From positions 218,544-282,543 of the forward strand of contig JACPWO010000001.1 in NCBI GenBank assembly GCA_016197005.1: DNA of 64,000 nucleotides. Direction: 5' to 3'. The position numbers and the translations under genes are program-made. Below, in pieces: positions 25,880 through 58,634 of the stretch. Positions within the stretch are counted from its first letter, which is position 1; each line of letters starts with the position of its first letter. This DNA is from Candidatus Anderseniibacteriota bacterium. GTDB lineage: Bacteria > Patescibacteriota > Andersenbacteria > UBA10190. The notes below the pieces were generated by a model that ran no database searches, had not been told where the DNA came from, and worked only from the letters and a program-made list of their open reading frames with translations.

Positions 25880-26506
25880 TTACTGGGCCGCAGCGTAACG
25901 TCGGGCAACTTCATCCCAATTCACTACATTCCACCAGCTCTCAATGTACTCTGATCTATTCGATAAAAATTTTATGTAGTACGCATGTTCCCACACATCC
26001 AATCCAAGGATTGGTGTTCCACCTATGCCAGCAATTTCTTTACCCATTAAAGGGCTATCTTGATTGGCAGTTGAACCGATTACAAGCTCACCGCCATCAA
26101 CCACAAGCCACGCCCATCCTGAACCAAAGCGAGTTACCCCAGCTTCAGCAAATTTCTTTTCAAATTCGTCAAAACTGCCAAATGTGTTTTGTATATCTGC
26201 TGCTAGCCCTCCAGTTGGCTGCCCACCCGTACCTGGAGCCATCAATGTCCAAAACAGTGAATGGTTGGCGTGTCCCCCACCGTTGTTTCTGACAGCAGTG
26301 CGAATATCTTCGGAAACGCTCGTGAGATTAGCAATTAAGTCTTCAACTGATTTACTGGCTAAGTCAGGATGACTTTCTAAAGCAGCATTTACTTTGTCGA
26401 TATACGCCTGATGATGTTTGGTGTGATGAATCTCCATTGTTTTCGCATCAATGTGTGGCTCAAGTGCGTCATAAGAGTACAGCAGTTTCGGAAGCGTATA
26501 CGGCAT
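25880..26506 (-). CDS. sodA: Fe/Mn superoxide dismutase (start moved to MPYTLPKL)
   Basis: [16 protein letters not shown]...HHTKHHQAY...DVWEHAYY metal-ligand signatures. Confidence 0.92.
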
Positions 26507-26587
26507 AAGATAGTTCGTTAAAAGTAATATCTTCACCATACCCACTCCGCCTTCCCTTCTCAAGGCGTTCTCCGCTAGGCTTAAAGG

Positions 26588-27154
26588 ATGTCCGGCACTA
26601 CTCATCAAATGGTTGCACTCCTGGCTGCCTTCTGGATTCTCACTCAGTATCCCATCTCGCTCGGGCCCACTCTCGCCATTTTTGCTATTTTCGCGGTAAT
26701 GATCGGGGCGCTTACCCCCGACTTAGATCAACCCTCAGCTAATCTGCTACGTCGCACCATTGGTGGAAAATTCATTCACAAGTTATTTACTGCTTTCTCA
26801 GGCGGTCATCGACACTTCACCCACGCCATCGTTGGTATTATTTTCATTGGCTTACTTCTACGCTGGCTTACGACTCGTTATCTTCTCCCTGAATTCCATA
26901 CCTCGGCGTTAGCGTTATGGTATGCCTTTATGATTGGCTACATTAGCCACCCGATTGCCGATACTTTAACAGATCATGGCGTGCCGTGGTTGTGGCCACT
27001 GCCGTGGAGTATAAAGATACCACCCGGTCCAGAGCAGCTACGAGTTACAACTGGTAGTTTTGTTGAGAATATTTTAGTGCGAGGTGCTCTTTTGATTGCT
27101 ATTGGATTTCTACTTACTACTCACTGGGTAACCCTTTTAGCCCTCTTTCAGTAG
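26588..27154 (+). CDS. YdjM-like (DUF457) membrane-bound metal-dependent hydrolase
   Basis: GGHRHFTHA motif; polytopic; 188 aa. Confidence 0.6.
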
Positions 27155-27218: not shown

Positions 27219-28079
27219 ATGATCGACAAGCTCGTTGGCTGGGCTTCGTTACTGCTGCTAATTGGCTTCACGGGTGGCGGCTTCGTAGCTGCCATTGCAA
27301 CTGTCTACGATGGGACATACCAAAAGCACCATGTGGCGATTTCCGTAGCAACGTGGTTCTTAGCGACGTTGGGAATCACGCTTTACTACCATCGCTTCGT
27401 GACGCACCGCAGTTACCGCTTCTCTACAGTTGGGAAATATGTTCTTCGTCCCTTTCTTGCATGGTTTGGCTTATTGAGTTGGCAAGGACCGCCAAAAAGA
27501 TGGTGTGCGGTTCACCGACACCATCATAAGCACTCAGACCAGGACGAAGATATGCATTCGCCGCACGCCCCGTACTCGAAGTGGTGGGGTGCCCTCTGGG
27601 CACATACCTTCTGGATCCCCTACGCAGTACCAGAAGAGCAGCCGAAGGACTTGGATAAGTTCGACAGAGTAATGAGTCGAACTGAAGTCTACTTGTTACT
27701 AGGTCCCGGCAGCGGTGTCGTGCTTTCTTATCTACTGGGTGGACTAGTGGGTATTGCATGGTATCTGGCTTCAGTATTCGTAAGCACCTGCATTTTGACA
27801 TGGGCAATAAACAGCTTGTGTCACTTGGTGGGCAGTCGAGATCTGGAAACCGGAGACCTAAGCACGAATGTTCTGATTCTAGGGTGGCTTACGGGCGGTG
27901 AAGCACTGCACAATGGTCACCATGGATTTCAGAAATCACCTCGGTTTGCGCATAAACCGTGGGAGGTGCCATTCGACACCGGCTATCTCGCATTGCGAGT
28001 ATTCGAATTCCTGGGCTTGGTCGATACGTTGAAAGTGCCTACCGCAGACCAGGTACTGAAGAGGCTACGTACCGCCTAA
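27219..28079 (+). CDS. membrane fatty-acid desaturase family protein
   Basis: Three His boxes (HRFVTHRSY, HRHHH, HNGHHGF); 286 aa. Confidence 0.8.
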   Translation: MIDKLVGWASLLLLIGFTGGGFVAAIATVYDGTYQKHHVAISVATWFLATLGITLYYHRFVTHRSYRFSTVGKYVLRPFLAWFGLLSWQGPPKRWCAVHRHHHKHSDQDEDMHSPHAPYSKWWGALWAHTFWIPYAVPEEQPKDLDKFDRVMSRTEVYLLLGPGSGVVLSYLLGGLVGIAWYLASVFVSTCILTWAINSLCHLVGSRDLETGDLSTNVLILGWLTGGEALHNGHHGFQKSPRFAHKPWEVPFDTGYLALRVFEFLGLVDTLKVPTADQVLKRLRTA

Positions 28080-36724: not shown

Positions 36725-39172
36725 TTAAAACTGGCTGACTGGAACCGTAAGCTGCTGACCGCCCTCTACTCTCCCAGCAATAAGTTGCTGCGCAATCCAG
36801 TATTCAACTTTGTCCTGAATAAGTCGTTTCATTGGCCGAGCTCCAAACTCAGGGTCGTATCCAGTTGCTGCTAAATAGTTTATAAGCTCATCAGTAACAG
36901 CAATAGTGATGCCATGCTGTGCATCTAGGCGAGCATTGAGACTTGTCATCATCCGAATTGCTACTTCTCGAATATGCTGAGCAGAAAGCGGCACAAAGGT
37001 AACAACACCATCAAACCGGTTCAAAAGTTCTGGTAAGAAAATACCCTTTTGCAAAATATGCTCTCGTAGCCTCGTATCAAAGTCGGGTGGAAATGTTCCG
37101 TCATCGGTAACACTGGTGCGAATAAGTTCAGCGCCAGCGTTACTGGTAGCAATAATAATACTGTGTACGAAAGAGTACTTGCGACCGCGCGCATCAGTAA
37201 TATATCCCTCATCGAGTAGAGGTAAGAAGAGTTCTTGAACGGCAACGCTCGCCTTTTCAAACTCATCAAGCAGAATAACGGAAAAAGGATGTTCGGCGAC
37301 GAGTCCAGTCAGGCGCCCGATCGGTCGACCAACCGTACCAATGAGACGTTCGATGGCGTCGCTACCTTGAAACTCTGACATATCCAGCCGCTGCAAGTAG
37401 CTTTCAGCACCGAAGTAAGCCTCCGCCAGTGCCTTTGCCGTTTCTGTTTTTCCGACTCCTGTTGGACCCAAGAACAAAAATGTACCGATCGGATGTTTGC
37501 CACTGCGCACACCGGCTCGTGCGCGAATCATAGCTCGCGAGACTGCCTCAACTCCCTCGTGCTGATTAACTACACGTCGGTGAATTTGATCAGCGAGCGA
37601 TAGGAGCCGCCCAGCCTCCTCTTGCCGCACTTTCCCAAAATCAATCCCCGTCTTGCGCGTAATGACTGCATCAACATCTTCGGGGAGAATTGTCACTGTC
37701 TTACTCCCCTCTGCTTCAACCACAACTTCTTCCAAAACATCAAAAGCTTTTTCTGGAAATGGTATGTGCGGCAAAATACTGGCGGTACTTTTTACAATTT
37801 CTTCCAGCGTCCGATACGGTAAAAACACTCCACTCTTCTTTTCCCACTGTTCAACCATCAGAGCTAAGAGTTTTAATGTTCGTTCTTCACTAAGCGGCGG
37901 TACTTCTACAATTTCAAATAAATGCTCCAGTTCGCTGTTACCAGCCAAACGCTGATGATAATCATCCAACGACATAACTGCTACTACTCTTACAGTTGGT
38001 GAAGAAAAGAAAGGCACCAGTACGTCGGTTATATTGGCCACTCCTTCTCCGCCCCCTAAGGCGCCACTTAAACCGTCGAGGACAACAATGACATTCCCCG
38101 CTCGTTCCATTTCGTTAAGAGCGCGTGAGACAATTGCGATCTGCTGCGGCCTACTATTACCTCCACTAATCAGTTGGCTGACATGAACATACAGAACTCG
38201 TTGCGATTCCAGGGCCGGATGAGCAGTTCCAGCGGCAATACGACGCATTACCTCTTTTATGACGCCAATTCTTCCCACTCCTGGTTGTCCGACTAACAAG
38301 ACATTACTCTGCCGCCGACGAGCTAAGCTATTAATAAGAAGATCTACTTGCTTCGGATGGGCCGCACCAATATCCCAGGCACTGCCGCGAGGGGGACGGG
38401 AAAACTGGTCAACCAAAGGTGTAAACCCCGCAGCCCAGGAAATACCAATTCCGGTAAAATCTAGCAGGTTCTCTTCTGACCACCAGCGTAAACGTTGGTG
38501 GTGCCACGCGCGGCGAGCCTCTTCCCACCATACCGCGAAACGAATATCTTCTTCCTGTAATTGTCGGCGACGCAGAAACATGTGCATCTGCGGATGAAGC
38601 AAGAACGCTGCCAATGCATCAGTGGCGGATATATATGAGTATTGACTACTCTGGGCGCTTATGGCTGCATCTTTGCCCATATCATCCCAGGAGTAGTTCG
38701 GCAGTACAGCTGTGGTAATTTCAGCTACAACTTCTTCTGCACTGAGCTGCAAACGCTTCAGTACCATTTGTGCAGCAGATGTCCGTAAAACATTTTTGCA
38801 GAATGATTCGAATTCCTTGCTGTTTCCTTTTTTATACGTTTGGGCAGCAAGCAGTAATCCAAAATCTGCCGCATCCGCTCCATTCTTCGTGGGCAACGTT
38901 GTTGATGGTAACCGGCGAGGTACAAACGTGATGGTATATACAAATAGCCAGCCAGCGACCAGGGCTACTGAGGCACAAAGACCACTTAGTACAAAGAGAG
39001 AGATAGGTAAAAATCCTTCCCAAAAATATCCGGTGATAGCACCGGCTACAGCCGCTGTAACCGCCCCAATTAGTACAAATGCAGACACAACACTAAGCGC
39101 CTCATTTGTTTGCACCGCCTGTAATCGACGGCGTGGATTAAAGATTTGAGTTAGATTCCCTCCGTCCGCCAT
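36725..39172 (-). CDS. membrane-anchored Clp/Hsp100-family AAA+ ATPase with degenerate D1 and intact D2
   Basis: N-terminal two TM helices. D1 Walker A GQPGVGRIG (K to R, T to G) and Walker B VVLDGL (E lost). D2 GPTGVGKTETAKALA, ILLDEFEKA, sensor-2 GARPMKR. 815 aa. Confidence 0.75.
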   Translation of the reverse strand: MADGGNLTQIFNPRRRLQAVQTNEALSVVSAFVLIGAVTAAVAGAITGYFWEGFLPISLFVLSGLCASVALVAGWLFVYTITFVPRRLPSTTLPTKNGADAADFGLLLAAQTYKKGNSKEFESFCKNVLRTSAAQMVLKRLQLSAEEVVAEITTAVLPNYSWDDMGKDAAISAQSSQYSYISATDALAAFLLHPQMHMFLRRRQLQEEDIRFAVWWEEARRAWHHQRLRWWSEENLLDFTGIGISWAAGFTPLVDQFSRPPRGSAWDIGAAHPKQVDLLINSLARRRQSNVLLVGQPGVGRIGVIKEVMRRIAAGTAHPALESQRVLYVHVSQLISGGNSRPQQIAIVSRALNEMERAGNVIVVLDGLSGALGGGEGVANITDVLVPFFSSPTVRVVAVMSLDDYHQRLAGNSELEHLFEIVEVPPLSEERTLKLLALMVEQWEKKSGVFLPYRTLEEIVKSTASILPHIPFPEKAFDVLEEVVVEAEGSKTVTILPEDVDAVITRKTGIDFGKVRQEEAGRLLSLADQIHRRVVNQHEGVEAVSRAMIRARAGVRSGKHPIGTFLFLGPTGVGKTETAKALAEAYFGAESYLQRLDMSEFQGSDAIERLIGTVGRPIGRLTGLVAEHPFSVILLDEFEKASVAVQELFLPLLDEGYITDARGRKYSFVHSIIIATSNAGAELIRTSVTDDGTFPPDFDTRLREHILQKGIFLPELLNRFDGVVTFVPLSAQHIREVAIRMMTSLNARLDAQHGITIAVTDELINYLAATGYDPEFGARPMKRLIQDKVEYWIAQQLIAGRVEGGQQLTVPVSQF

Positions 39173-40827: not shown

Positions 40828-41841
40828 TTACTGTAAATGCTCTGCCTTATTCCGGTTATGTTCGTCGTTCGTCTCGGCAAAAATGGTCTCACCCGACGGA
40901 GCAGATAAGTAGTAATAATATTCGGATGCTTCTGGTTTAATCGCGGCCGTCAGTGCACGCAGACCGGGATTGCTAATTGGGCCGGGCGGTAGACCACGGT
41001 ATTTTCGGGTGTTGTATGGCGAGTCTATCGCCAAATCTGCGACCGTAAGACCGGCTGTTGGCTTATTCAACGCATACCGAATGGTGGCATCAACGTACAG
41101 TCCTTCACCATCATCAAGTCGTTTCCATAAAATACCAGCCACGACCGCCATATCATCGTCAGTTTGCACTTCTCGTTCTAGAATACTGGCCATGTTGACC
41201 ATCTCATCCAGCGTTCGATCAGTTCCAGCCGCTAGGCCACTCTGAACAATCCGTCGATCAAAGTTTGTTAGCATACGACGAATAACATCGAGCGAAGTGT
41301 CATCTTCAAATACCCGATACGTATCTGGAAAAAGGTACCCTTCGAGTGTTCGTCCCTCTGGCAACTCACCTACAAAAGAAAATTCTTCAGCAAATTGAGC
41401 CGGACTGGAGACTGCCTGCATAAATTCCTCTTTCGTGCCAATACCACGTTCGGCCGTTCGCGCTGCTATTTGTTCGAGAGTAAAACCTTCGGGATACGTC
41501 AGGGTTAGTTCATTCTCCGTAGTATCTCCATTAATGAAGCGCGTAACGACTTCGCTGACTGGTTGTCCAATTGTTAAGTGATACGTTCCAGCCTGAATTT
41601 TATCCGCTGCTTCTTGCCGCCAGCTGTAGTACTTCCAAGGTAGCTCGCTACCAGTAAATCCTTCCGCCGCCAGTGCGCTCCACACGGCTCGGGAGGAAGT
41701 ACCGGATTCAATGGCAAAATCTCCGTCCTTTTCAAGGACAGCCCCCGCGATGAGCCAACGAAAACTAACAAGTAAGACGACGAATAGGACCAAACCGATG
41801 ATTCCGTAAAATTTGCGAGGACTTGTTACTTGAATAGCCAT
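40828..41841 (-). CDS. mltG: endolytic murein transglycosylase MltG (YceG family)
   Basis: N-terminal TM plus YceG domain; C-terminal YYYLSAPSGETIFAETNDEHNRN signature. Confidence 0.82.
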   Translation of the reverse strand: MAIQVTSPRKFYGIIGLVLFVVLLVSFRWLIAGAVLEKDGDFAIESGTSSRAVWSALAAEGFTGSELPWKYYSWRQEAADKIQAGTYHLTIGQPVSEVVTRFINGDTTENELTLTYPEGFTLEQIAARTAERGIGTKEEFMQAVSSPAQFAEEFSFVGELPEGRTLEGYLFPDTYRVFEDDTSLDVIRRMLTNFDRRIVQSGLAAGTDRTLDEMVNMASILEREVQTDDDMAVVAGILWKRLDDGEGLYVDATIRYALNKPTAGLTVADLAIDSPYNTRKYRGLPPGPISNPGLRALTAAIKPEASEYYYYLSAPSGETIFAETNDEHNRNKAEHLQ

Positions 41842-41850
41842 AGACAGCTT

Positions 41851-42918
41851 TTAAAGATATTCTTTTTTACCCTCCCTTTCAATCCTCTCCACTACTTCCT
41901 TTACTTTATGGGCAGCGTCAGTATCACAAACGAGTACTGCCTTATCCGTTACCACCACCACGGCGTTATCAATACCTATTAACGAGACGGCTTTGTCCGT
42001 TGTGTTGTAAATAAAATTATTTTCCGAATCCACATGAATATGATGGCCGGCTGGCATATGATCTCCCACTTTTCCAAAGATTTCTTTTACAGTTGCCCAA
42101 TTACCAACGTCACTCCAACCATAGTCACCCGTAACAGCAATAATGGTTTTTGTTTTTTCCACGAATGTTTTTTCCAGTGCCACCTTCGGTAAGTTTTCAT
42201 ACACTTGTCGCCACTTATCCGTATCTTTGCTGGTAATTGCTGACGCTAGCTCTTCGCTCGCCTCTTTCCATTCAGGGCTAAGCGTCGTTACCTGAGACAG
42301 TAAATAAGTCGGCTTCAGCGAAAAGTATCCTAAATTCCAGAAGTAACCTCCGGCGGCCACAAAGCCTTCAGCTGTTTCTTTATTTGGTTTCTCAATAAAT
42401 TTTTCGACATGATATACGTTTGGTTTTCCTGCGAGAGCCTCTCCCACTTTGAAATACCCAAGAGTGGTATTGGGATTAAGCGGAACGTGTCCCGCAATAA
42501 TGAGCGCCTCAGGATATTGCTCCAGTAAAGCTGGAACAGTTTGTAAGTCCTTGAGAAATACTTCTTCATTGGCAAATACATGATCCGACCACAAGAAGGT
42601 GGTCGGCATATCACCTTTTCCTGATGCAATCAGATTAAGACAGACGTTTAAGAAAGCGGCGGTCGTATCACGTTTAGCCGGTTCTAGTAAAAGATGATCG
42701 GTTGTAACACCAGGTAGTAACTGCTCTATCTGCTTGGCATATTTTTCCGATGTGGCCACAAAAATATTTTCCGGAGATGTAAGAGCTGTGGCTCGTTCAT
42801 AGGCATGAACCAACAAAGGCTTACCGGTACCTAAATCCACAAACTGCTTCGGATTGTCCCGAACTGATAGAGGCCACAACCGTGTCCCCCCACCCCCCGC
42901 CATAATGACGACGTTCAT
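41851..42918 (-). CDS. mannose-1-phosphate guanylyltransferase (GDP-mannose pyrophosphorylase)
   Basis: MNVVIMAGGGGTRLWPLS nucleotidyltransferase N-terminus; 355 aa. Confidence 0.8.
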   Translation of the reverse strand: MNVVIMAGGGGTRLWPLSVRDNPKQFVDLGTGKPLLVHAYERATALTSPENIFVATSEKYAKQIEQLLPGVTTDHLLLEPAKRDTTAAFLNVCLNLIASGKGDMPTTFLWSDHVFANEEVFLKDLQTVPALLEQYPEALIIAGHVPLNPNTTLGYFKVGEALAGKPNVYHVEKFIEKPNKETAEGFVAAGGYFWNLGYFSLKPTYLLSQVTTLSPEWKEASEELASAITSKDTDKWRQVYENLPKVALEKTFVEKTKTIIAVTGDYGWSDVGNWATVKEIFGKVGDHMPAGHHIHVDSENNFIYNTTDKAVSLIGIDNAVVVVTDKAVLVCDTDAAHKVKEVVERIEREGKKEYL

Positions 42919-42920
42919 GA

Positions 42921-44354
42921 TTGGAGTGTACCGAGCATGGTAAACTATTGTCCATGTCAGTCGCTGCTCGTGCCGTTCATGGAATCAACGTCTGCGTTAT
43001 TCCCTCCCCATATAACGATGATCGTCCGCTCGCTTTGCGGCATCGCTCACTCGCCACAGTCTCCGGGGCGCTTTTGGCAGTAAAGCTCTTGGCCGCCCTA
43101 GCGATAGCTTTTGCTCCCACTCCCGCTGAGCTTTCCGTCATCACCACTAACCGTATTATCCAACTTACTAACGCTGAACGACAAAAAGGTGGCTTATCTG
43201 CTCTTACTACGAATAGCCAACTAACAGCGGCCGCTCAAGAAAAATGCAAACACATGCTTGAGGAAGATTACTTCGCCCACATTTCCCCAAGTGGTGTTAC
43301 CCCGTGGTTTTGGATAAAAAAACATGGATATACCTACCAAGTGGCTGGGGAAAACTTAGCAATTGATTTTACTGAAGCTGAAGACGTGGTAGCTGCCTGG
43401 ATGGCCAGCCCCTCCCACAAAGCGAATATTATGCACAGCGAATATACCGAGACCGGGGTGGCAGTGGTGAGTGGTGAATTTCAAGGAGGCACCTCTATTG
43501 TTGTTGTACATATGTTTGGATTACCAGCTGGCGCAACAGCTCCGTCCTCTACACCCGTCCCTACATCTACACCAGCGACTGCCGGCACTCAACAAAAAAT
43601 ATCCACCCCCACTCCCTCGCCCACCACCACTCCACTTCCTACCACCCCGACAGCAGTACCCCCGAGCCCGTCCGCTGTTCCTCTCCGCACGCCCCGCATT
43701 GCGCTGGCCGGTACCGCGACGGCCGGAGCGACCGTGCTCGTTTCAATTGAAGGCGAAGGTAACAGTGCCATTACTGTTTTAGCGAACGGACAAGCCGCCG
43801 ACACTATTAACTTGCCGCCGACTGGCCAAGCCACAGCTGCAATAAATATCTCTTCTATTCCAGATGGAGCTGTAGTCCTTCGCGCCTATGCCTCAGGCTT
43901 TGGCAGACAAAGCGAACTATCTGAAGGAGTAGCTATAACGAAGGATACGACTGGGCCAGCGCTGGCCTTTGCAGATCTTTCCTTTGTGATTTCTCCGGCC
44001 TTTGATACCGCCCAAGCAGCGGTGAGCCTGCCAAGCGTAAATGGCTCACAAAGCATTCAACTCATCGATATTCGTTCTACAGAAACACTCGAAGCGCGCG
44101 ATGAGCATGGCAACGTTTCCGTTGTAGATACGACGTCGCTTAAGCCCAGCTTCGAAGAAACCGCTCAAAGTGCAGAGCTGCGAGCGCCCCAACGACTGCT
44201 CCAGGTGTCTCGTCACATGTCAGTAGTTGTCCTCATCGTCTTACTTGTCCTGCTATCGATGGCAATAATAATCCGCATTCACGTCCAACACCCTGCTCTT
44301 ATTATGCACGCGTCGCTGGCTATTCTTCTCTCAAGTGTTCTGTTTCTGATCTAA
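42921..44354 (+). CDS. CAP/SCP/PR-1 domain protein with Pro/Thr-rich linker and C-terminal TM anchors
   Basis: CAP domain (NAERQKGGL...HMLEEDYFAH...GENLA); PT-rich linker STPVPTSTPATAGTQQKISTPTPSPTTTPLPTTPT; C-terminal hydrophobic helices. True start possibly at MSVAARAV (42954). Confidence 0.7.
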   Translation: MECTEHGKLLSMSVAARAVHGINVCVIPSPYNDDRPLALRHRSLATVSGALLAVKLLAALAIAFAPTPAELSVITTNRIIQLTNAERQKGGLSALTTNSQLTAAAQEKCKHMLEEDYFAHISPSGVTPWFWIKKHGYTYQVAGENLAIDFTEAEDVVAAWMASPSHKANIMHSEYTETGVAVVSGEFQGGTSIVVVHMFGLPAGATAPSSTPVPTSTPATAGTQQKISTPTPSPTTTPLPTTPTAVPPSPSAVPLRTPRIALAGTATAGATVLVSIEGEGNSAITVLANGQAADTINLPPTGQATAAINISSIPDGAVVLRAYASGFGRQSELSEGVAITKDTTGPALAFADLSFVISPAFDTAQAAVSLPSVNGSQSIQLIDIRSTETLEARDEHGNVSVVDTTSLKPSFEETAQSAELRAPQRLLQVSRHMSVVVLIVLLVLLSMAIIIRIHVQHPALIMHASLAILLSSVLFLI

Positions 44355-44453
44355 TTTTACACCCAAAAGGATTATTGAGATTTTGCCGTTTTAGGTGGTA
44401 AAATCCACGTGTGATGTGGAATATTGGATTTCCAACCGAAGGAGGTGTTAACC

Positions 44454-44630
44454 ATGGCTGACGCACTTATCGTCGCAAGTAAAGTCCGTGCTCACCTCAA
44501 GACTCAAGGTGTGAAGATGTCTGGTGAACTTCCGGACGCACTCAACAAGAAAGTTATGGCCCTTCTTAATGATGCCGCTGCACGCTGCAAGGGTAACAAA
44601 CGTTCTACCGTAAAACCTCAGGACGTATAA
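44454..44630 (+). CDS. small hypothetical protein (58 aa) with strong ribosome-binding site
   Basis: GAAGGAGGTG 7 nt upstream of ATG 44454. Protein MADALIVASKVRAHLKTQGVKMSGELPDALNKKVMALLNDAAARCKGNKRSTVKPQDV. The ORF-track start at 44424 is less likely. Confidence 0.5.
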   Translation: MADALIVASKVRAHLKTQGVKMSGELPDALNKKVMALLNDAAARCKGNKRSTVKPQDV

Positions 44631-44719
44631 TGATAGGGCTAGAATAGCCCGAAAAGCCCCAGGATTGCGATTTCTTGGGGTTTTTCTTATAGTAGAAAAG
44701 CCGTAAAAACCAAATAAAA

Positions 44720-44748
44720 TTGACAAATAAGGCAAATAAGGTTAATAT
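44720..44748 (+). promoter_or_regulatory. near-consensus sigma70-type promoter for the sortase gene
   Basis: TTGACA (44720-44725), 17 nt, TAATAT (44743-44748). The ATG of the sortase gene is at 44763, so the transcript is leaderless or has a very short leader. Confidence 0.6.
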
Positions 44749-44762
44749 TACCCGTTATTTAT

Positions 44763-45449
44763 ATGAAGACCTTCCCTCTCTTTTTAGCCGTTTTTGGCTT
44801 TGCCTCCCTCTTTTTCTTTGGGCTGGGCGTTGTTGCGTTAATGGTCACCCCAGTGGTTGCCAGCTTAACGGTGGGCAAAGAGGCATACCAGCCTCTCCTG
44901 CCAGTTAGCGAGGCTCGCGAGGAAGGTTTCCTGGATGTTAAGGAAAACCCCGGAAAACAGATGTATCCTGCCCTCACGACGGAAGGACAAAGCTTGCCTC
45001 AAACAAACCGTATTGTCATTCCCGCGCTTGATGTCGATGTCCCAATCATTATGAGCCCTTCGTTGGAAGATGTTGATGTTATCGCCACTCTCAATGAAGG
45101 TGCGGCCTTGTATCCCAACGGTGTACTGCCAGGACACTTAGGTAACCTCTTCATCTCTGCTCACAGCACTGGCGAGCCATGGAAGGGTAAATATCGTTTT
45201 GCTTTCCTGCGGATTAATGAGCTACAGCCAGGAAACGTTTTGCATATTGATTACAATGGCACTCGCTACACCTACACCATGACTGATCAGGAGATTGTAA
45301 CTCCAACTCCCGATTACCGCGTGGTATCTGATCGTCCGGTGCCAACACTTTCGCTCATGGCCTGCTGGCCAATTTGGTCAACCCAAAAACGCATGCTTAT
45401 TCACGCTGACCTCACCAACGTCACCAAACTGACACAGCGTCCAGCTTAA
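44763..45449 (+). CDS. sortase-family transpeptidase
   Basis: N-terminal TM; catalytic His (LFISAHS), TLSLMACWP Cys motif and a downstream Arg; 228 aa. Confidence 0.8.
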   Translation: MKTFPLFLAVFGFASLFFFGLGVVALMVTPVVASLTVGKEAYQPLLPVSEAREEGFLDVKENPGKQMYPALTTEGQSLPQTNRIVIPALDVDVPIIMSPSLEDVDVIATLNEGAALYPNGVLPGHLGNLFISAHSTGEPWKGKYRFAFLRINELQPGNVLHIDYNGTRYTYTMTDQEIVTPTPDYRVVSDRPVPTLSLMACWPIWSTQKRMLIHADLTNVTKLTQRPA

Positions 45450-45458
45450 CTCTTTTTG

Positions 45459-46253
45459 TTAACAATTCTGCGCTTTGCGCCAACCGGCCTCCGTTGCCTC
45501 TTTTTCCGTACAAAAATATTTCTCTCCCTGCGCCGCATCTATTTCTGTCCGGCCGTAACTACCACAACCCGGAAGATGATAAATCTTCTGGCCACTACTA
45601 ATATTTCCTTTGATAGTGCAATCTCCGGACGGTAGCGGCAGCGGCGTACTGGTACCAGTTGCCCCACACTGCCCGCTCCAGATCCCCCATTTCATCTGCC
45701 GAGCAAACTCTTCAGCTGTATCTAATTGCACTTGATAGGCGACGTCCGGTGGATATTTAGAAGCCCGCGCAAATCCTTCGCGTACTAACACATCGTTTAT
45801 AAAAACATCATCAACGTAGATATACCGAAGTAATCGACCCAGGCGATCGGTTTCACTTACGTCCTTTTCTAAACGAACGCGCTTTCCCTCAACCAGTGTT
45901 TTATTTTTCTCTGAAGCTTCTTTTCCTAGACACTCAACTGGCGTCCCTACCTGAACTGACTCCGGTGTATCGATGCCGATATACCGCACGCGTCTGCCAC
46001 CTACTAATACGACGGTGTCACCATCAACTACACGCTCGACGACAGCAAATTCATCCTGAGCTCCAGCTACTTTTGTTGGAGCTGGAGTCGGAGTTGGAGT
46101 ACTTACAGGTGTTGCGAGTGGAGTGGGAAGAGATGTAGGAAGAGTTAGCGGTTGTAAAGAATTATCAGTTCGTAAAATAAAGTAGCCGGCAACTATTATA
46201 ACCAGCAGCCACAGACCTTTCTTTAAGAGCGTCGCTTTTTTCGAGACCGCCAT
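45459..46253 (-). CDS. secreted thermonuclease (SNase/micrococcal nuclease-like) with C-terminal Cys-containing KIYHxPGCxxY module
   Basis: Signal/TM; PT-rich linker; SNase core RVVDGDTVVL...RYIGIDTPE...GRLLRYIYVDD; C-terminal CTIKGNISSGQKIYHLPGCGSYGRT...C. Confidence 0.75.
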   Translation of the reverse strand: MAVSKKATLLKKGLWLLVIIVAGYFILRTDNSLQPLTLPTSLPTPLATPVSTPTPTPAPTKVAGAQDEFAVVERVVDGDTVVLVGGRRVRYIGIDTPESVQVGTPVECLGKEASEKNKTLVEGKRVRLEKDVSETDRLGRLLRYIYVDDVFINDVLVREGFARASKYPPDVAYQVQLDTAEEFARQMKWGIWSGQCGATGTSTPLPLPSGDCTIKGNISSGQKIYHLPGCGSYGRTEIDAAQGEKYFCTEKEATEAGWRKAQNC

Positions 46254-47527
46254 AATGAGTAACCAAAGGCGGCAGCGCCAACAATGATAAGTACCAAACC
46301 AATCTTAAGCCTACCTTCTGCTACGCGAGCGTCACTTGCCAGCTCATCTATTTGTTGCGGCGCAAGGTTATACCGTACTTCTCGAGCAAAATATTCCTTT
46401 TCTGGTGAAGCAATACGAACAGATACACGAGGAGTTCCGACAATGTCTCGCGGTAAGGGGAAGATGAATGTACCCTGGCGAATACTGTCGGCAAGTTTTA
46501 ACCCTTGTTCAGTGTGGCTGGCCAGAACTCCGTGATCGTCACCTAACGATACTACTACATCAGCATCAAATGTCGTCTCAGCATCGGCGGCTCCGACAAA
46601 ATCTACTGCCACGATAGCTTTATCATTTGCTTTACTTCCCATCCGATCTATTCGTGTCCATAACACATCAGCATCCGCTCCCCGCACTACCCAACGATAC
46701 GTTGCTAAACTAGAAACTTGTCGGCCACTACTTCCACGAAGCCACAGAACACCAAAATATACTTCTGGTTGATCGGCGGCAACAACTGGCATTTTAAAAC
46801 GTGTCGGCTGCCCGGCTCGAAGTGTTTGTGGCCTTCCTATTACCTGATTCAACCGACCGCGGGCTTGGTCAAATTCATAGATATCCAGCACGGGAGTAAC
46901 CGTTATCCCCTGCTCGGAAGTAGCCTCCGCTTGGATTTCAAATGAAGATCCAGCCGAAACATTTGGACCAGACAAAGGTTCAAGCACTGTATCTTGGTAC
47001 TCAGGAATATCGAATGGTCCTGGACCAAGCTCAATGACATCAGCGACAGCGGAGCCAGTGACGGTAATAGTTGCGTCATACCATCCCAAATCCCGTCCCC
47101 GCAGTGACGTCATCATTAGCCGCATCCGATAAGCGCCATTTGGTAGCCCAGGTAGTTTATACGTAACTGGCACTGCCTTTGTTTCCTGTGGGGCCAAGGT
47201 AATATTTTCAGGGAAGACTTGTACGTCGTATAAAATTACGCTGCTCTCCTGAATAGCTTCTTCTGTTCCCTCAGGCAGACTCATGAGCTCAACTCGGTAC
47301 CCTAAATCGGCAACCGTACTTTTTTCGCTATTAAATGCGTTAAAGACGCCAGTTACCGTTTGGGTTTTTGCATCAAAGGTCACTTCCGCTTTGGGGATAA
47401 AGACGCGGGGTGGATGGTAAGTGTTATTTAAGTCAATCTCTCCCCGATTGCCAAAAGGTGAAGTACTTTGAGCGTATGCGAGGCTAGGTAGCAATAATCC
47501 GATCGCGACTAGCGTAAAGAGTTTCAT
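46223..47527 (-). CDS. secreted hypothetical protein with C-terminal TM anchor and basic tail
   Basis: Signal peptide MKLFTLVAIGLLLPSLAYA; C-terminal LVLIIVGAAAFGYSLWRSRKKRRS. Confidence 0.55.
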   Translation of the reverse strand: MKLFTLVAIGLLLPSLAYAQSTSPFGNRGEIDLNNTYHPPRVFIPKAEVTFDAKTQTVTGVFNAFNSEKSTVADLGYRVELMSLPEGTEEAIQESSVILYDVQVFPENITLAPQETKAVPVTYKLPGLPNGAYRMRLMMTSLRGRDLGWYDATITVTGSAVADVIELGPGPFDIPEYQDTVLEPLSGPNVSAGSSFEIQAEATSEQGITVTPVLDIYEFDQARGRLNQVIGRPQTLRAGQPTRFKMPVVAADQPEVYFGVLWLRGSSGRQVSSLATYRWVVRGADADVLWTRIDRMGSKANDKAIVAVDFVGAADAETTFDADVVVSLGDDHGVLASHTEQGLKLADSIRQGTFIFPLPRDIVGTPRVSVRIASPEKEYFAREVRYNLAPQQIDELASDARVAEGRLKIGLVLIIVGAAAFGYSLWRSRKKRRS

Positions 47528-47609: not shown

Positions 47610-48992
47610 TTAGAAGAATCGGCGGGCTAAGAACGCTAGGCCGCTTGCTCCTCCAAAAAGGTTAAAGAGAGCGAAAGAAGCAGTTCCACCAGTGCGAGCG
47701 GTTACCGGCACCTGAACAATTTGATTTACAATGTGCCTTTCAATTATTGTCTCAGTCACGCCAGCCACTTCTGGCTCTCGTTCAACAATTGTGGTGTCTT
47801 CATCTTCATCACAAACGTCATGGTCATCAGAACACGCTTCGATAGTGTTGTGAAGATTAGCTCCATTAGGCGCACTGTCTTTTACCGTAGCGGTAATGTG
47901 GTAAGTCTTTGACTCATTTTCATCTAAGTGAATTCCCGTCCAACGAACAGTTTGTCCAGAGATAGAACCACCGCTGCTGACAGATGTAATTGTGAGGTAG
48001 GATGGGACATGATCTTCTATTTCGACGTCATGGAGGTCTACGTCTCCCGTATTCTCGACTTCAATTTCATACGTCAGGCTGTGCCCAGGACGCGTGATAT
48101 CTCGATTGTCCGTCTTAGTTACTCGAATGGCTGGATCGCCTGGTGCTGGGGTAGGTGTAGGAGTTGGCGTGGGTGTAGGGGTTGGCGTCGGAGTTGGTGT
48201 AGGCGTCACAGTTGGCGTTGGAGTCACAGTCGGAGTTGGTGTCACCGTGGGAGTAGGAGTTATGGTTGGCGTTGGTGTAATTGTTGGTGTAGGCGTAGCG
48301 GTTGGAGTAGGCGTCGGAGTTGGCGTGGGTGTAGGGGTTGGCGTTGGAGTAGGAATGCCAGCAAAATTGAGCCAAATGTTAACTGCTGTTGCTCGATTAG
48401 TGGCAAAGGCTTCGTCACTCAAACTAAATGAAGTGGTTGGAGTAAACTTGCGTAACCACTTCCCTACCACCTGCAGGGTTACTTTTGTTTCTCCTGCTTT
48501 GAGACTTGATAGGTTCAGGATGTGACTACCGGTTCGACTAGCGAAACAATACAGCGTGCCATTACAGAACTTCTCGCTATACACATCATCAGTGAGCATG
48601 ATCCAGTTGCTCTGAGCTGTGCCCTCGTAGTTACTGTGGTGCCCACCCATTTGGTCAAAACGACTCAGGACCCGAGCATTGAACACGATGTTATTACATA
48701 CTAAAAAGTCGACTCGGTAACTAAACGGAACGGCTGTTATGTCATATGTACCGGCCGCAGCATTGTGGATTGGAGAATTTACGAAAAGCTGAATAACAGG
48801 TTCATTACTGAGACGTTTTGGCAAATCATCATATCCTGTTGTAAGGCGTGGATTAATAACGGTAATACCATTTGAGCCAGCGCCAGCAGCTTTTTCTAAG
48901 TTGGCAGTAAATAACAATGCACCGAGCACCATCAGGGCACTAGCTAAGAGATACGGAAAGAAACGGAGGTTCTGTTTTACTAGGCTACTCAT
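47610..48992 (-). CDS. surface protein: N-terminal signal peptide, (TP)n linker, DUF11 (conserved repeat) domain, C-terminal sorting-signal-like tail
   Basis: Linker [42 protein letters not shown]... DUF11-like IRVTKT...[29 protein letters not shown]-terminus VPVTARTGG + hydrophobic [17 protein letters not shown] + RRFF. Confidence 0.75.
48115..48375. repeat. hexanucleotide-periodic tandem DNA repeat encoding the (TP)n linker
   Basis: GGTGTAGGAGTTGGCGTGGGTGTAGGGGTTGGCGTCGGAGTTGG... has ACNCCN periodicity on the coding strand. It generates spurious antisense GVGVGV ORFs. Confidence 0.8.
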
Positions 48993-49118: not shown

Positions 49119-50816
49119 TTAGAAGAACTTGCGGAGAACGAAGGCTAGACCGCCAGCGCCACCGAATAGGTTAAGGAGAGCGACCGAAGCCAGACCGCCC
49201 GTTTTGGCCGTAATTGGAACTGGAACGATACCATAACTTGTGCCAGCTACATCTTTGACTACTGTTTGCGTGATAATGTGCTGAACAGTTTTATGAGAAG
49301 TTCCAGCTACCTTGCCCGCGTTATCTACACTGGTCGAATCACTATCTTCATCACAGACATCGAAGTCATCTGAGCAAACTTCTACTCGGTTCGACAACAG
49401 GACTCCGTCAGGAACATTGCTTTTAACAGTGACGGTAATAGTGAATGTCTTGGTGTCGTTTTCTCCGATAGTAATACCGTCCCATGTAACTTTCTGACCA
49501 GCAATTGTGCCACCATCACTAGCTGACTTGATTGTTAAGTAGGATGGTACGTTGTCTTCAATGTGGATGTCGTGAATATCTACGTCACCCGTGTTCTCGA
49601 CTTCAATTTCATAGGTAAATGTATTGCCCGGTTTAACGAGATTCTGACTGGCTGTCTTCGTTACTCGAATATCTGCGTCATCAGGATCGGGAGTTGCCGT
49701 TGGGGTAGGCGTAGGAGTTGGCGTGGGTGTCACGGTGACCGTTGGAGTTGGAGTTACCGTAGCAGTCGGGGTTGGAGTCGGTGTCGGAGTTATAGTCGGC
49801 GTAGCAGTCGGAGTCACCGTAGGCGTCGCTGTGGGTGTAGCTGTCGGGGTAGATGTCGGTGTTGGAGTAACAGTTGCAGTGGGTGTTGGAGTTGCGGTTG
49901 GGGTTGGAGTAGCTGTAGGTGTCGCGGTCGGAGTAACTGTCGGGGTTGCTGTTGGTGTGACAGTAGGAGTCGCCGTTGGCGTAGCTGTTGGCGTAGCTGT
50001 AGGAGTAGCAGTTACAGTCGGCGTGGGAGTCGGGGTATCAGTAGGTGTTGGAGTCGGAGTAGCGGTAGGCGTAGGAGTTGGCGTGGGTGTAGGGGTACCA
50101 GTAGGAGTAACGGTCGGAGTCGTTGTTGGTGTAGTGGTTGGTGTTGCAGTCGGCGTGGCTGTAGGAGTTGGAGTGGCGGTTACCGTCGGAGTTGGGGTTG
50201 GAGTACCTAATACTGACGTGTCATAAAACAAAACATACTCGTCAATCCTTGGTCCAGCCGTCAATACAAAGCTGGCAACATTTGGAGCTGAATCGTAAAT
50301 TGTTACCTCATCTTTTAAAATACGACCGAGTTTCTCTCGTCCGTTATTTGGTCGCTCACTTCGTTCACGGCGAACACCATTTGAGCCACCGGTAAATGTA
50401 GAGCCATCAAGAATGATGAGACCGGCGGCACCAACTTTCCCGCGAGCAACATCACCATCAACTTTAATCTTGATCCAACCAGGGCCACGTTGCAGGGCTA
50501 AGCCGGTTGGATATACTGGTTCGGATTCAACAATAGGTTGGCCGCCAGTCGCGACTGGGAAGGTTTCGTTATCTTGGACAATTTGACCGCTCCCTAATTT
50601 TACAGTTGGCGTCATAACGCTCCGTCGAGTGGAGAGAACGGCACTAAAATCTACTCGAGCGTTAATGACTGGTGTCAAAGCTTCGGCAATATGTGTTTGG
50701 ACAGATACGAACGCAAGAATTCCGACAACAAGAAACGCCCCAGACAAACTGATAAATGGCGTTGAGATTCCAATCTTCTTTGCGAAAATTTTCTTTGACA
50801 GTATTTCCTTAAACAT
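49119..50816 (-). CDS. surface protein paralog: signal/TM, roughly 150-aa (TP)n-type linker, DUF11 domain, C-terminal sorting-signal-like tail
   Basis: Linker [36 protein letters not shown]...; DUF11-like [47 protein letters not shown]; C-terminus [11 protein letters not shown] + [20 protein letters not shown] + RKFF. Confidence 0.75.
49690..50215. repeat. roughly 520-bp hexanucleotide/dodecanucleotide tandem repeat encoding the (TP)n linker of the second paralog
   Basis: GTTGGGGTAGGCGTAGGAGTTGGCGTGGGTGTCACGGTGACCGTTGGAGTTGG... continuous GTNGGN-type periodicity. Confidence 0.8.
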
Positions 50817-58258: not shown

Positions 58259-58588
58259 TTATGATTTTTTCTTATCTAATCTATCTAAGCCGATAATTTT
58301 GACACCATAATAGACTACGAGCGCAATTACAAGGAAGTCTACGAAAACTGCCATAAAACTGCCCCATTTGACCTCAACTGCACCCAACGTCCATTTCATC
58401 GCCGCGAGCGTTTCTCCCCGCCCAATAACGATGCCAATGAGAGGATTTATGACGTCTTGGACGAGAGAAGATACTACTTTTGAGACAGCACCACCTAAAA
58501 TAAAACCAACGGCCAGACCAACTACTCCCTGCTGGCGGACAAATTCTAAGAACCCCTGAAACTGATTTTTAATAATAGTGGCAGACAT
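58259..58588 (-). CDS. mscL: large-conductance mechanosensitive channel MscL
   Basis: FLEFVRQQGVVGLAVGFILGGAVSKVVSSLVQDVINPLIG matches the MscL TM1 region; 109 aa. Confidence 0.85.
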   Translation of the reverse strand: MSATIIKNQFQGFLEFVRQQGVVGLAVGFILGGAVSKVVSSLVQDVINPLIGIVIGRGETLAAMKWTLGAVEVKWGSFMAVFVDFLVIALVVYYGVKIIGLDRLDKKKS

Positions 58589-58634
58589 ATTTTTGTGATC
58601 GGATCGTAGGATATTTTGCCTAATCGGTCAATGA

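What the first reader, a model, noticed from the sequence alone, without database searches (positions are those of the whole stretch)
42921..47527. Secretome / cell-surface island: CAP-domain protein, leaderless sortase with consensus promoter, secreted SNase nuclease, anchored secreted protein
These genes sit directly upstream of the DUF11 paralogs. There is a CAP/SCP domain protein with a PT linker and TM anchor. There is a 58-aa ORF with an unusually strong GGAGGTG RBS, which is unusual because most genes here lack one. The sortase is preceded by TTGACA-17-TAATAT only 15 nt before its ATG. There is a secreted thermonuclease with a C-terminal Cys-containing KIYHxPGCxxY module, and a secreted protein with a C-terminal TM and RSRKKRRS tail. 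For an organism that must scavenge nucleotides (see the salvage operon 2 kb downstream), a surface-displayed nuclease plus adhesin-like proteins form a coherent host-attachment and DNA-scavenging module.
Basis: partly seen in the sequence, partly recalled or inferred. Interest (0 to 1): 0.55.

Follow-up and report, generated by a model that had tools for sequence, protein, structure and literature searches.

The report
Surface-protein genes around a bacterial histone
This stretch of an ultra-small groundwater bacterium (Candidatus Andersenbacteria) holds ordinary cell-surface genes, namely a sortase, two proteins it probably anchors, a secreted nuclease and a CAP-domain protein, but the small strongly translated gene in the middle is a bacterial histone rather than a secreted protein, and the genes do not form one conserved island.

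Summary
The window comes from a Candidatus Andersenbacteria (CPR/Patescibacteria) genome assembled from a metagenome.

Four of the five proteins have N-terminal signal or anchor segments:
- a CAP/YkwD-like protein;
- a sortase with an intact His-Cys-Arg triad;
- a staphylococcal-type nuclease with a C-terminal NCBIfam "sunset" domain;
- a tail-anchored protein of three beta-sandwich domains.

The fifth, the 58-aa ORF with the perfect AAGGAGGTG ribosome-binding site, is a face-to-face (alpha3) bacterial histone. It is 53% identical to the Leptospira histone HLp (profile E = 1e-19), keeps HLp's tetramer and RD-clamp residues, and has its own promoter and terminator.

Synteny in 61 related loci splits the "island" in two. 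CAP, histone and sortase form a conserved core segment next to the L10 and L7/L12 ribosomal-protein genes. The nuclease, the 434-aa protein and the DUF11 genes are lineage-specific.

The useful new link is that both DUF11 proteins end in VP[VI]TA[KR]TG, a hydrophobic stretch and a basic tail. The same signal occurs on proteins beside sortase genes in four other genomes, so these are probable sortase substrates with a non-canonical motif.

All the families are known, and Andersenbacteria histones already appear in a published supplement. Interest is modest.

The parts
42954..44354 (+). Membrane-anchored CAP/YkwD-like protein (466 aa): N-terminal membrane segment, CAP domain, PT-rich linker, a region with no family match, then two C-terminal membrane segments.
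   Evidence: Pfam CAP E=1.1e-15. TIGR02909 YkwD scores 110.6 bits, below its cut-off of 171. Topology. Orthologs (41-65% identity) lie at the same position in relatives.
44375..44422 (+). Promoter region of the histone gene: TTGAGA (44375-44380), an extended -10 TGGTAAAAT (44396-44404), and a conserved GATGTGGAAT box (44413-44422).
   Evidence: The TGGTAnAAT element and the GATGTGGAWAA box recur upstream of the orthologs. The exact combined pattern was matched in 7 related loci, once per locus and only there, and looser versions are visible in most of the 23 upstream regions.
44440..44447 (+). Consensus Shine-Dalgarno site AGGAGGTG, 6 nt before the ATG of the histone gene.
   Evidence: GGAGGTG is present upstream of 36 orthologs, which is nearly every locus whose upstream sequence is available. 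Such sites are rare in this genome, preceding 4-7 of 72 ORFs.
44454..44630 (+). 58-aa face-to-face (alpha3) bacterial histone, HLp-like.
   Evidence: PDB 9qt0 (Leptospira perolatii HLp) E=8.5e-14 for the single sequence and 1.3e-19 for the ortholog profile; HBb 9e-7; archaeal HTkC 5e-6. S9-K10, R44, N48, R50, T52 and D57 are invariant. The AF2 model shows helices at 8-17, 25-47 and 55-57. No hydrophobic segment; 11 K+R against 5 D+E.
44636..44691 (+). Intrinsic terminator after the histone gene: two hairpins, the second followed by a U-run.
   Evidence: RNA fold of -31.3 kcal/mol, z=-5.6, with 0 of 200 shuffles folding as well.
44720..44748 (+). Sortase promoter TTGACA-17-TAATAT, ending 14 nt before the ATG. 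No Shine-Dalgarno site follows.
   Evidence: In 13 relatives, TTGACA-17-TATAAT (CATAAT in one) ends exactly 8 nt before the sortase ATG, which predicts a leaderless mRNA.
44763..45449 (+). Membrane-anchored sortase (228 aa). Its class is unresolved.
   Evidence: Pfam Sortase 65.8 bits. H134, C201 and R210 are invariant in 16 homologs. N-terminal membrane segment at 6-24. All NCBIfam class models score far below their cut-offs. PDB hits are weak and spread over several classes.
45459..46253 (-). Membrane-anchored extracellular nuclease: signal anchor, PT linker, SNase domain, C-terminal 4-Cys 'sunset' domain.
   Evidence: Pfam SNase E=1.9e-21; NF051437 sunset 38.8 bits against a cut-off of 27. 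The alignment to S. aureus nuclease keeps the DGDT, R..DTPE and GR active-site motifs. Topology.
46223..47527 (-). 434-aa surface protein: signal peptide, three tandem beta-sandwich domains, C-terminal membrane helix and a basic tail. It has no sortase motif.
   Evidence: No family match. Only 2 homologs among 5.8 billion proteins. AF2 pLDDT 72.7. Foldseek matches tandem macroglobulin/FN3-type arrays.
47610..48992 (-). DUF11 protein a (460 aa): signal peptide, N-terminal domain, PT repeats, DUF11 domain, C-terminal sorting signal (47613-47711; motif VPVTARTG at 47688-47711). Probable sortase substrate.
   Evidence: Pfam DUF11 E=4.7e-15. C-terminus VPVTARTGG followed by a hydrophobic stretch and RRFF.
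49119..50816 (-). DUF11 protein b (565 aa): same layout with a longer PT stalk. Sorting signal at 49122-49220; motif VPITAKTG at 49197-49220. Probable sortase substrate.
   Evidence: Pfam DUF11 E=5.2e-15. C-terminus. Its N-terminal domain recurs in proteins bearing the VPVTAKTG signal next to sortase genes in L013, L015, L018 and L050.

Best explanation
The region is two things lying side by side, not one functional island.

(1) A vertically inherited core segment of Andersenbacteria genomes. It encodes a membrane-anchored CAP/YkwD-like wall-associated protein, then a monocistronic histone gene built for high expression, then the housekeeping sortase.
- The histone is of the HLp (face-to-face) type. 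By analogy with HLp it would form tetramers that wrap and compact the chromosome. That step is inferred.
- Its consensus ribosome-binding site, extended -10 promoter and terminator are conserved across the clade. The genome otherwise hardly uses Shine-Dalgarno sites, which argues for very high expression, as expected of a nucleoid protein.
- The sortase is transcribed from a consensus promoter that abuts its start codon. The predicted mRNA is leaderless in many relatives and has a leader of about 7 nt here.

(2) A lineage-specific set of surface-protein genes on the opposite strand.
- The two DUF11 proteins are exported by Sec. The sortase would then recognise their C-terminal VP[VI]TA[KR]TG, hydrophobic stretch and basic tail, cleave within the motif (after the first or the second Thr; not determined) and link them to the cell wall. 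The Pro-Thr repeats would act as stalks that hold the N-terminal domains away from the cell. The signal and its adjacency to sortase genes are shown; the enzymology is inferred.
- The nuclease stays tethered by its N-terminal anchor and PT linker and would degrade external nucleic acid.
- The 434-aa protein is a tail-anchored stalk of beta-sandwich domains with no known function.
For: Organism and gene content.

Histone:
- Similarity to HLp, HBb and HTkC.
- Invariant residues: S9-K10, R44/N48/R50 (HLp R49/N53/R55) and the R50-D57 clamp, mapped from the alignment using PMC12701072, PMC11390915 and PMC10627809.
- Predicted fold with a truncated alpha3.
- No signal peptide.
- Conserved Shine-Dalgarno site and promoter.
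- Terminator.
- Rarity of Shine-Dalgarno sites in the window.

Synteny: CAP-histone-sortase occurs in 43 of 56 informative loci. The nuclease appears in only 1 related locus and the 434-aa protein in none. Genes downstream of the sortase vary.

Sortase: domain and catalytic triad; promoter geometry in relatives.

Substrates: the P.TA.TG signal was found only in the two window DUF11 proteins and in four proteins directly beside sortase genes in other genomes (L013, L015, L018, L050).

Nuclease active site.

434-aa protein fold.
Against: - Nothing here measures expression, DNA binding, tetramer formation or sortase cleavage.
- The sortase fails every NCBIfam class cut-off, and no curated sorting-signal model recognises these C-termini. 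The substrate assignment therefore rests on motif shape and adjacency in only six proteins.
- Some of the 61 loci duplicate the same genome in two collections (for example L030, L055 and L061), so the counts overstate independence.
- A sub-clade (L019, L024, L028, L047, L048, L050, L051) has CAP directly next to the sortase with no histone between them, so the triad is not universal.
- The AF2 monomer model of the histone has only moderate confidence (pLDDT 68), and its Foldseek E-values are not significant.
- Whether HU or other nucleoid proteins exist elsewhere in the genome is unknown.
Confidence: 0.7

Rival explanations
1. One reading: the five genes plus the DUF11 paralogs form one coherent, co-selected module for host attachment and DNA scavenging, functionally tied to the nucleotide-salvage genes downstream.
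For: The sortase, its probable substrates, an anchored nuclease and another surface protein do lie within 8 kb, next to NUDIX, deoxyribosyltransferase and HAD genes. The closest relative (L032, sortase 66% identical) also has the nuclease convergent with the sortase. CPR bacteria are generally thought to depend on scavenged nucleotides (my own background knowledge, not tested here).
Against: The block is not syntenic beyond the closest relative. One of the five genes is a histone. The genes lie on opposite strands in several transcription units. The salvage genes adjoin the sortase in relatives that lack the nuclease and the DUF11 genes (L019, L021, L023, L024, L026).
Confidence: 0.15
2. The C-terminal VPxTAxTG, hydrophobic and basic segments of the DUF11 proteins are plain membrane anchors, or targets of some other sorting system, and their position near the sortase is a coincidence.
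For: No curated LPXTG, LAXTG or LPxTA model recognises them. The sortase fits no defined class. The 434-aa protein next door has a similar hydrophobic segment and basic tail with no motif at all.
Against: The eight-residue motif is nearly identical in six proteins from five genomes whose other parts have diverged. It sits at the canonical distance before the hydrophobic stretch. In every case it lies beside a sortase gene, including a second sortase paralog. No exosortase or archaeosortase gene was seen in the flanks.
Confidence: 0.15
3. The 58-aa histone-fold protein is not a global chromatin protein but a specialised factor, for example a local regulator. Its fixed position between the CAP and sortase genes would then reflect a role in controlling envelope genes.
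For: It is conserved at one genomic position between two envelope genes in 43 loci. A conserved GATGTGGAWAA box in its own promoter could be an operator. Schwab et al. caution that not all prokaryotic histone-fold proteins need be global organisers (PMC11390915).
Against: The whole run from ClpB to the sortase is collinear in these genomes, so adjacency carries little functional weight. The protein keeps the residues HLp uses for sequence-independent DNA backbone contacts and for tetramer formation. It has the one perfect Shine-Dalgarno site of the region, which fits abundance better than a regulator would. A sub-clade lacks the gene at this position but keeps CAP and sortase.
Confidence: 0.12

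Closest known systems
HLp, the face-to-face (alpha3) histone of Leptospira perolatii and L. interrogans (PDB 9QT0-9QT2; PMC12701072)
   Same: 29 of 55 aligned residues are identical and the profile E-value is 1.3e-19. It is a single histone fold of about 58-65 aa with a truncated alpha3. The RxTxxxxD motif and RD clamp are present, as are the tetramer-interface residues R49/N53/R55 and the S-K motif in alpha1.
   Different: The host is a CPR bacterium, not a spirochaete. HLp's DNA-contact residue T27 is Met here and K17 is Arg. The gene neighbourhood differs: hlp lies next to smc in many Leptospira, whereas this gene lies between CAP and sortase genes. No biochemical data exist for this protein.
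HBb/Bd0055, the 'bacterial dimer' histone of Bdellovibrio bacteriovorus (PDB 8FVX, 8CMP)
   Same: Same alpha3 histone family, same size, and a full-length alignment.
   Different: It is much more distant (profile E about 1e-6). According to PMC11390915, HBb lacks the dimer-dimer residues that this protein keeps.
Sortase transpeptidases of monoderm bacteria: class E (LAxTG) and class D (LPxTA)
   Same: Pfam sortase domain, His-Cys-Arg triad and an N-terminal membrane anchor. Adjacent substrates carry a tripartite C-terminal signal. The motif VP[VI]TA[KR]TG contains both an LPxTA-like core (VPxTA) and an LAxTG-like core (TAxTG).
   Different: It scores 24-51 bits against class models whose cut-offs are 140-166, so it belongs to no curated class even though NCBI labels it 'class E'. 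The substrate motif is not canonical and no curated signal model recognises it.
Staphylococcal nuclease (thermonuclease Nuc/NucI)
   Same: The SNase fold family, with the Ca-binding and catalytic motifs conserved, and an N-terminal export or anchor signal.
   Different: It carries a PT-rich linker and a C-terminal Cys-rich 'sunset' domain. That domain has no solved structure, and no paper on it exists in the library searched.
DUF11 / 'B_ant_repeat' surface proteins of Gram-positive bacteria
   Same: A DUF11 domain followed by a cell-wall sorting signal.
   Different: There is a single DUF11 copy, very long (Pro-Thr)n stalks, and N-terminal domains with no family or PDB relatives.

Membership tests
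Face-to-face (alpha3) prokaryotic histones | Significant sequence similarity to characterised members (HLp, HTkC). | tested here: met
   HLp 9qt0 E=8.5e-14 for the single sequence and 1.3e-19 for the profile; HTkC 9f2c 4.8e-6.
Face-to-face (alpha3) prokaryotic histones | Histone fold with a short alpha2 and an alpha3 truncated to 3-4 residues (PMC11390915). | tested here: met
   The AF2 model has helices at 8-17, 25-47 and 55-57 (pLDDT 68, moderate). The top Foldseek hit is HTkC with TM 0.68, followed by H4 and NF-Y, but the E-values are not significant.
Face-to-face (alpha3) prokaryotic histones | RxTxxxxD motif / RD clamp. | tested here: met
   R50-S-T52-V-K-P-Q-D57. R50, T52 and D57 are invariant in 29 orthologs.
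Face-to-face (alpha3) prokaryotic histones | Dimer-dimer (tetramer) interface residues: HLp R49, N53, R55. These are absent from 'bacterial dimer' histones. | tested here: met
   They map to R44, N48 and R50, all invariant.
Face-to-face (alpha3) prokaryotic histones | Forms tetramers and wraps or compacts DNA; abundant nucleoid protein. | not testable with these tools
   Only indirect evidence: a consensus Shine-Dalgarno site, an extended -10 promoter and a terminator conserved across the clade in a genome poor in Shine-Dalgarno sites.
Sortase (Pfam PF04203, peptidase C60) | Domain match above the curated threshold and a His-Cys-Arg catalytic triad. | tested here: met
   65.8 bits against a cut-off of 26.6. 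H134, C201 (in LMACWP) and R210 are invariant.
Class E sortase (the NCBI product name for this protein) | Score at or above the NF033747 cut-off (160 bits). | tested here: not met
   50.5 bits. The class D, C and F models score 39.5, 38.3 and 24.1 bits, also far below their cut-offs. The best PDB matches are weak and spread over classes A, C and D.
Class E sortase (the NCBI product name for this protein) | Substrates carry LAxTG. | tested here: inconclusive
   The neighbouring substrates carry VP[VI]TA[KR]TG. This contains TAxTG (Thr in place of Leu) and also VPxTA. The cleavage site is unknown.
Sortase-substrate pair | The substrate has an N-terminal signal peptide and a C-terminal motif, hydrophobic stretch and basic tail, and is encoded near the sortase. 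| tested here: met
   Both window DUF11 proteins meet this, as do four proteins beside sortase genes in L013, L015, L018 and L050.
Staphylococcal nuclease (PF00565) | Domain above threshold, with Ca-binding Asp residues and the catalytic Arg/Glu/Arg conserved. | tested here: met
   76.9 bits against a cut-off of 21. DGDT, R-x4-DTPE and GR align with D21, R35, D40, T41, E43 and R87 of the S. aureus enzyme (the residue numbering is from my own knowledge).
CAP / YkwD | Pfam CAP above threshold; TIGR02909 YkwD above its cut-off. | tested here: inconclusive
   CAP is met: 59 bits against 21.1. The YkwD subfamily is not met: 110.6 bits against 171.
Genomic island (co-inherited functional block) | The block is conserved as a unit in relatives, or shows marks of mobility such as flanking repeats or skewed composition. 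| tested here: not met
   Only the left half is syntenic. GC content is 0.47-0.49, like the flanks. No inverted or flanking repeats were found apart from the PT-coding repeats.

The most novel reading that the evidence does not exclude
Andersenbacteria, a CPR lineage with tiny genomes, may use an HLp-type tetrameric histone as their main chromatin protein. It would be expressed from a clade-wide conserved cassette: an extended -10 promoter, a GATGTGGAWAA box that could be an autoregulatory operator, and the only perfect Shine-Dalgarno site in the region. The same lineage may also have a sortase clade of its own that recognises a non-canonical VPxTAxTG sorting signal. Either point would extend histone-based bacterial chromatin, or the sortase classification, into the candidate phyla radiation.
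Probability: 0.35. Interest if true: 0.55.

Novelty: new member of a known kind. Interest (0 to 1): 0.33.

Why it matters
The practical gain is better annotation.
- NCBI lists the 58-aa gene as a hypothetical protein. It is a well-conserved histone of the HLp type, present at one fixed position in most sampled Andersenbacteria.
- The 'class E sortase' label is not backed by the class model.
- The DUF11 proteins can now be read as probable wall-anchored sortase substrates with a variant motif.

For bacterial chromatin research, CPR histones have so far appeared only as rows in a supplementary table (Hocher et al. 2023). Their persistence across the clade and their exceptional expression signals make Andersenbacteria a reasonable further case of histone-organised bacterial chromatin.

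For CPR biology, a defined sorting motif would allow a genome-wide list of wall-anchored surface proteins. Those are the likely mediators of contact with host cells.

None of this overturns current understanding.

Tried and rejected
- Pfam and NCBIfam gave nothing significant for the 58-aa ORF (DUF1931 E=0.15). The identification came from the PDB sequence search.
- The word-indexed protein search reached only 44 close orthologs of the histone. The full profile search found 1116 representative clusters, but that library has no names. A look-up of ten of them returned almost no taxon labels, so I could not map the family across phyla.
- I first thought CPR histones might be unreported. No paper in the library pairs Patescibacteria with histone-fold, and the Schwab et al. 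supplements do not mention them. However, Supplementary Table 1 of Hocher et al. already lists Andersenbacteria, Peregrinibacteria and 'Patescibacteria group' singlets. I dropped that novelty claim.
- HU was not found by tblastn in 680 kb of fetched sequence. All of those loci surround the same region, so the result says nothing about the whole genome.
- No significant RNA structure was found in the histone 5' leader (z=-0.37).
- There is no literature on the 'sunset' domain in the library and no solved structure. The tau hit is a low-complexity artefact.
- The N-terminal domains of the two DUF11 proteins have no PDB sequence relatives.
- The 434-aa protein gave only generic matches to tandem beta-sandwich arrays.
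- I considered that the right half might be a mobile insertion. I found no flanking repeats and no compositional shift.
- The long + strand ORFs inside the DUF11 genes (47928-48525 and 49563-50226) are antisense readings of the PT repeats, not genes.

Full report
**What is there.** The window matches a metagenome-assembled genome of Candidatus Andersenbacteria (CPR/Patescibacteria), GCA_016178385.1 contig JACOTL010000015.1, apart from one 186-bp in-frame difference in ClpB.
- a CAP-domain protein (likely start ATG 42954);
- a 58-aa ORF (44454-44630) behind AGGAGGTG;
- a sortase (44763-45449);
- an SNase-family nuclease (45459-46253, minus strand), whose C-terminal KIYHxPGC module is the NCBIfam 'sunset' domain;
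- a 434-aa protein (46223-47527, minus strand) with a signal peptide, a C-terminal membrane helix and an RSRKKRRS tail;
- two DUF11 genes, followed by a cluster of NUDIX, Ser-hydrolase, deoxyribosyltransferase and HAD genes.

A hydropathy scan shows N-terminal hydrophobic segments in all of these except the 58-aa protein.

**The promoter and ribosome-binding-site claims.**
- TTGACA-17-TAATAT ends 14 nt before the only possible sortase ATG. This predicts a leader of about 7 nt with no Shine-Dalgarno site.
- Promoter-like hexamers are not enriched in the region, so the site alone means little.
- In 13 related loci, however, TTGACA-17-TATAAT (CATAAT in one locus) ends exactly 8 nt before the sortase ATG. 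That is the geometry of a leaderless mRNA.
- A crude census of the window found a Shine-Dalgarno core before only 4-7 of 72 long ORFs. It found a consensus promoter abutting the first ATG of five genes, including YceG, the NTP-transferase and MscL.
- Short or absent leaders are therefore the habit of this genome and are not special to the sortase. The perfect site before the 58-aa ORF is the real exception.

**The 58-aa ORF is a histone.**
- A sequence search of the PDB matched HLp, the face-to-face histone of Leptospira perolatii (9QT0, E=8.5e-14, 29 of 55 residues identical). It matched the Bdellovibrio histone HBb more weakly.
- A profile of 29 orthologs raised these matches to 1.3e-19 and 9e-7, and added the archaeal face-to-face histone HTkC at 5e-6.
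- I mapped the residues described for HLp (PMC12701072) through the alignment. The tetramer-interface residues R49/N53/R55 correspond to R44/N48/R50, and the RD clamp R55-D62 corresponds to R50-D57. All of these are invariant in the orthologs.
- The RxTxxxxD motif of alpha3 histones (PMC11390915) and the S9-K10 motif of bacterial singlets (PMC10627809) are also invariant.
- An AlphaFold model has helices at 8-17, 25-47 and 55-57. This is the histone fold with the truncated alpha3. Its structural neighbours are HTkC, H4 and NF-Y, although the E-values are not significant for so small a protein.
- The protein is basic and has no export signal.
- The gene is its own transcription unit. It has an extended -10 (TGGTAAAAT), a box GATGTGGAAT just downstream, the Shine-Dalgarno site, and a strong two-hairpin terminator (-31.3 kcal/mol, z=-5.6).
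- All of these signals recur in the orthologs, and the box occurs only there.
- By analogy with HLp and HBb, which are abundant and essential nucleoid proteins, I infer a highly expressed chromatin protein.

**Synteny.** Using an alignment of 16 sortase homologs, I fetched 29 loci from species-representative genomes and 32 from metagenomes. I located the window's proteins in them by tblastn.
- The run ClpB, a 121-aa membrane protein, L7/L12, L10, YceG and NTP-transferase on one strand, followed by CAP, histone and sortase on the other, is conserved.
- The histone lies directly upstream of the sortase in 43 of 56 informative loci. Some of these loci are the same genome seen twice.
- The exceptions are three loci with a second sortase paralog, three divergent or short contigs, and a sub-clade of seven loci in which CAP abuts the sortase.
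- To the right of the sortase nothing is conserved. The nuclease recurs only in the closest relative (L032, sortase 66% identical) and the 434-aa protein nowhere. It has just two homologs in 5.8 billion proteins.
- The space after the sortase holds assorted housekeeping genes, or directly the deoxyribosyltransferase and Ser-hydrolase genes.
- No compositional shift or flanking repeats mark the right half.

**Sortase and substrates.**
- The sortase has the Pfam domain, an N-terminal anchor and an invariant His134/Cys201/Arg210 triad.
- It scores far below the cut-off of every NCBIfam sortase class and has only weak PDB matches of mixed class. NCBI's 'class E' label is therefore not supported by the class model.
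- A census of C-termini in the window and in all loci found a tripartite sorting signal in the two DUF11 proteins (VPVTARTGG... and VPITAKTGG..., each followed by a hydrophobic stretch and RRFF or RKFF). It also found one in four other proteins ending VPVTAKTG(P/V)..., each encoded immediately beside a sortase gene in another genome (L013, L015, L018, L050).
- These four share the N-terminal domain of DUF11 protein b.
- No curated sorting-signal model recognises these tails.
- The motif contains both an LPxTA-like core and an LAxTG-like core, so I cannot say where it is cut.
- I infer that the DUF11 proteins are wall-anchored by this sortase on long Pro-Thr stalks. The 434-aa and CAP proteins lack the motif and are simply membrane-anchored.

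**The other proteins.**
- The nuclease aligns with S. aureus nuclease with the metal-binding and catalytic motifs intact. It is tethered by a signal anchor and a PT linker.
- Its sunset domain has no structure and no literature in the library searched.
- The 434-aa protein is predicted with moderate confidence to be three beta-sandwich domains on a membrane helix. Its matches are generic, to macroglobulin- and FN3-type arrays.

**Comparison with what is known, and verdict.**
- Sortases in CPR genomes have been noted before (PMC7143001).
- SNase, CAP and DUF11 are common families.
- Bacterial face-to-face histones are described mainly from Spirochaetota, Planctomycetota, Bdellovibrionota and Myxococcota.
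- CPR is not discussed in those texts. However, Supplementary Table 1 of Hocher et al. 2023 already lists three Andersenbacteria singlets, one of them the ortholog in L030, together with Peregrinibacteria and 'Patescibacteria group' entries. The histone is therefore a catalogued but undiscussed member of a known family.
- This analysis adds four things:
  - the clade-wide persistence of the histone, its fixed position and its exceptional expression signals;
  - a correction to the 'secretome' reading;
  - the split of the region into a conserved core and a variable surface-protein set;
  - a candidate non-canonical sorting motif tied to a sortase clade that fits no curated class.

I rate it a new member of known kinds, of modest interest.

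Noticed in passing
window 44413-44422; orthologous positions in L004-L031: A conserved box GATGTGGAWAA lies 7-9 nt downstream of the extended -10 of the histone gene. It occurs once per locus and only there. It could be the start-site region or an operator. It is not enriched elsewhere in the window (12 one-mismatch hits against 7.8 expected).
   Followed up: partly
proteins P0165, P0168-P0171, P0174-P0176: The histone profile also finds proteins of about 118-141 aa with two matched stretches. These are tandem doublets of this alpha3 histone type. Their organisms could not be identified.
   Followed up: no
window 38492-38677 (inside ClpB, 36725-39172, minus strand): The window carries an extra in-frame 186 bp (62 aa) in ClpB compared with the otherwise identical GenBank contig JACOTL010000015.1. 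It is not a tandem repeat. It may be an assembly or population variant.
   Followed up: partly
whole window; e.g. 25880-26608(-), 27219-28079(+), 5376-6149(-), 40828-41841(-), 41851-42918(-), 58259-58627(-): The genome is poor in Shine-Dalgarno sites: 4-7 of 72 ORFs have one. The few genes that do include an Fe/Mn superoxide dismutase and a fatty-acid desaturase. Consensus promoters abutting the first ATG, which suggest leaderless mRNAs, also precede a HAD hydrolase, YceG, the NTP-transferase and MscL.
   Followed up: partly
L013 997-2868, L015 10001-12388, L018 5149-7547; L021 11013-11546: Some Andersenbacteria genomes have a second sortase paralog. It is followed by a substrate bearing the VPVTAKTG signal and by an anchorless paralog with a weak Big_1 match. 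L021 has a further small sortase-like ORF (motif TIYTCTG) just after the deoxyribosyltransferase gene.
   Followed up: partly
L019, L024, L028, L047, L048, L050, L051: In one sub-clade the CAP gene directly abuts the sortase gene with no room for the histone. Whether the histone was moved or lost in these genomes is unknown.
   Followed up: no
window 47928-48525 and 49563-50226 (+ strand): Long + strand ORFs rich in Gly/Val or Arg/Ser/Trp are antisense readings of the (Pro-Thr)n coding repeats of the DUF11 genes. These repeats also cause the local GC-skew spike (+0.175 at 48-50 kb).
   Followed up: yes
window 45459-45640 (C-terminus of the nuclease): The 'sunset' domain (NF051437) has four Cys residues (C212, C230, C248, C264). 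It has no solved structure and there is no paper on it in the library searched, so its role on an extracellular nuclease is open.
   Followed up: partly
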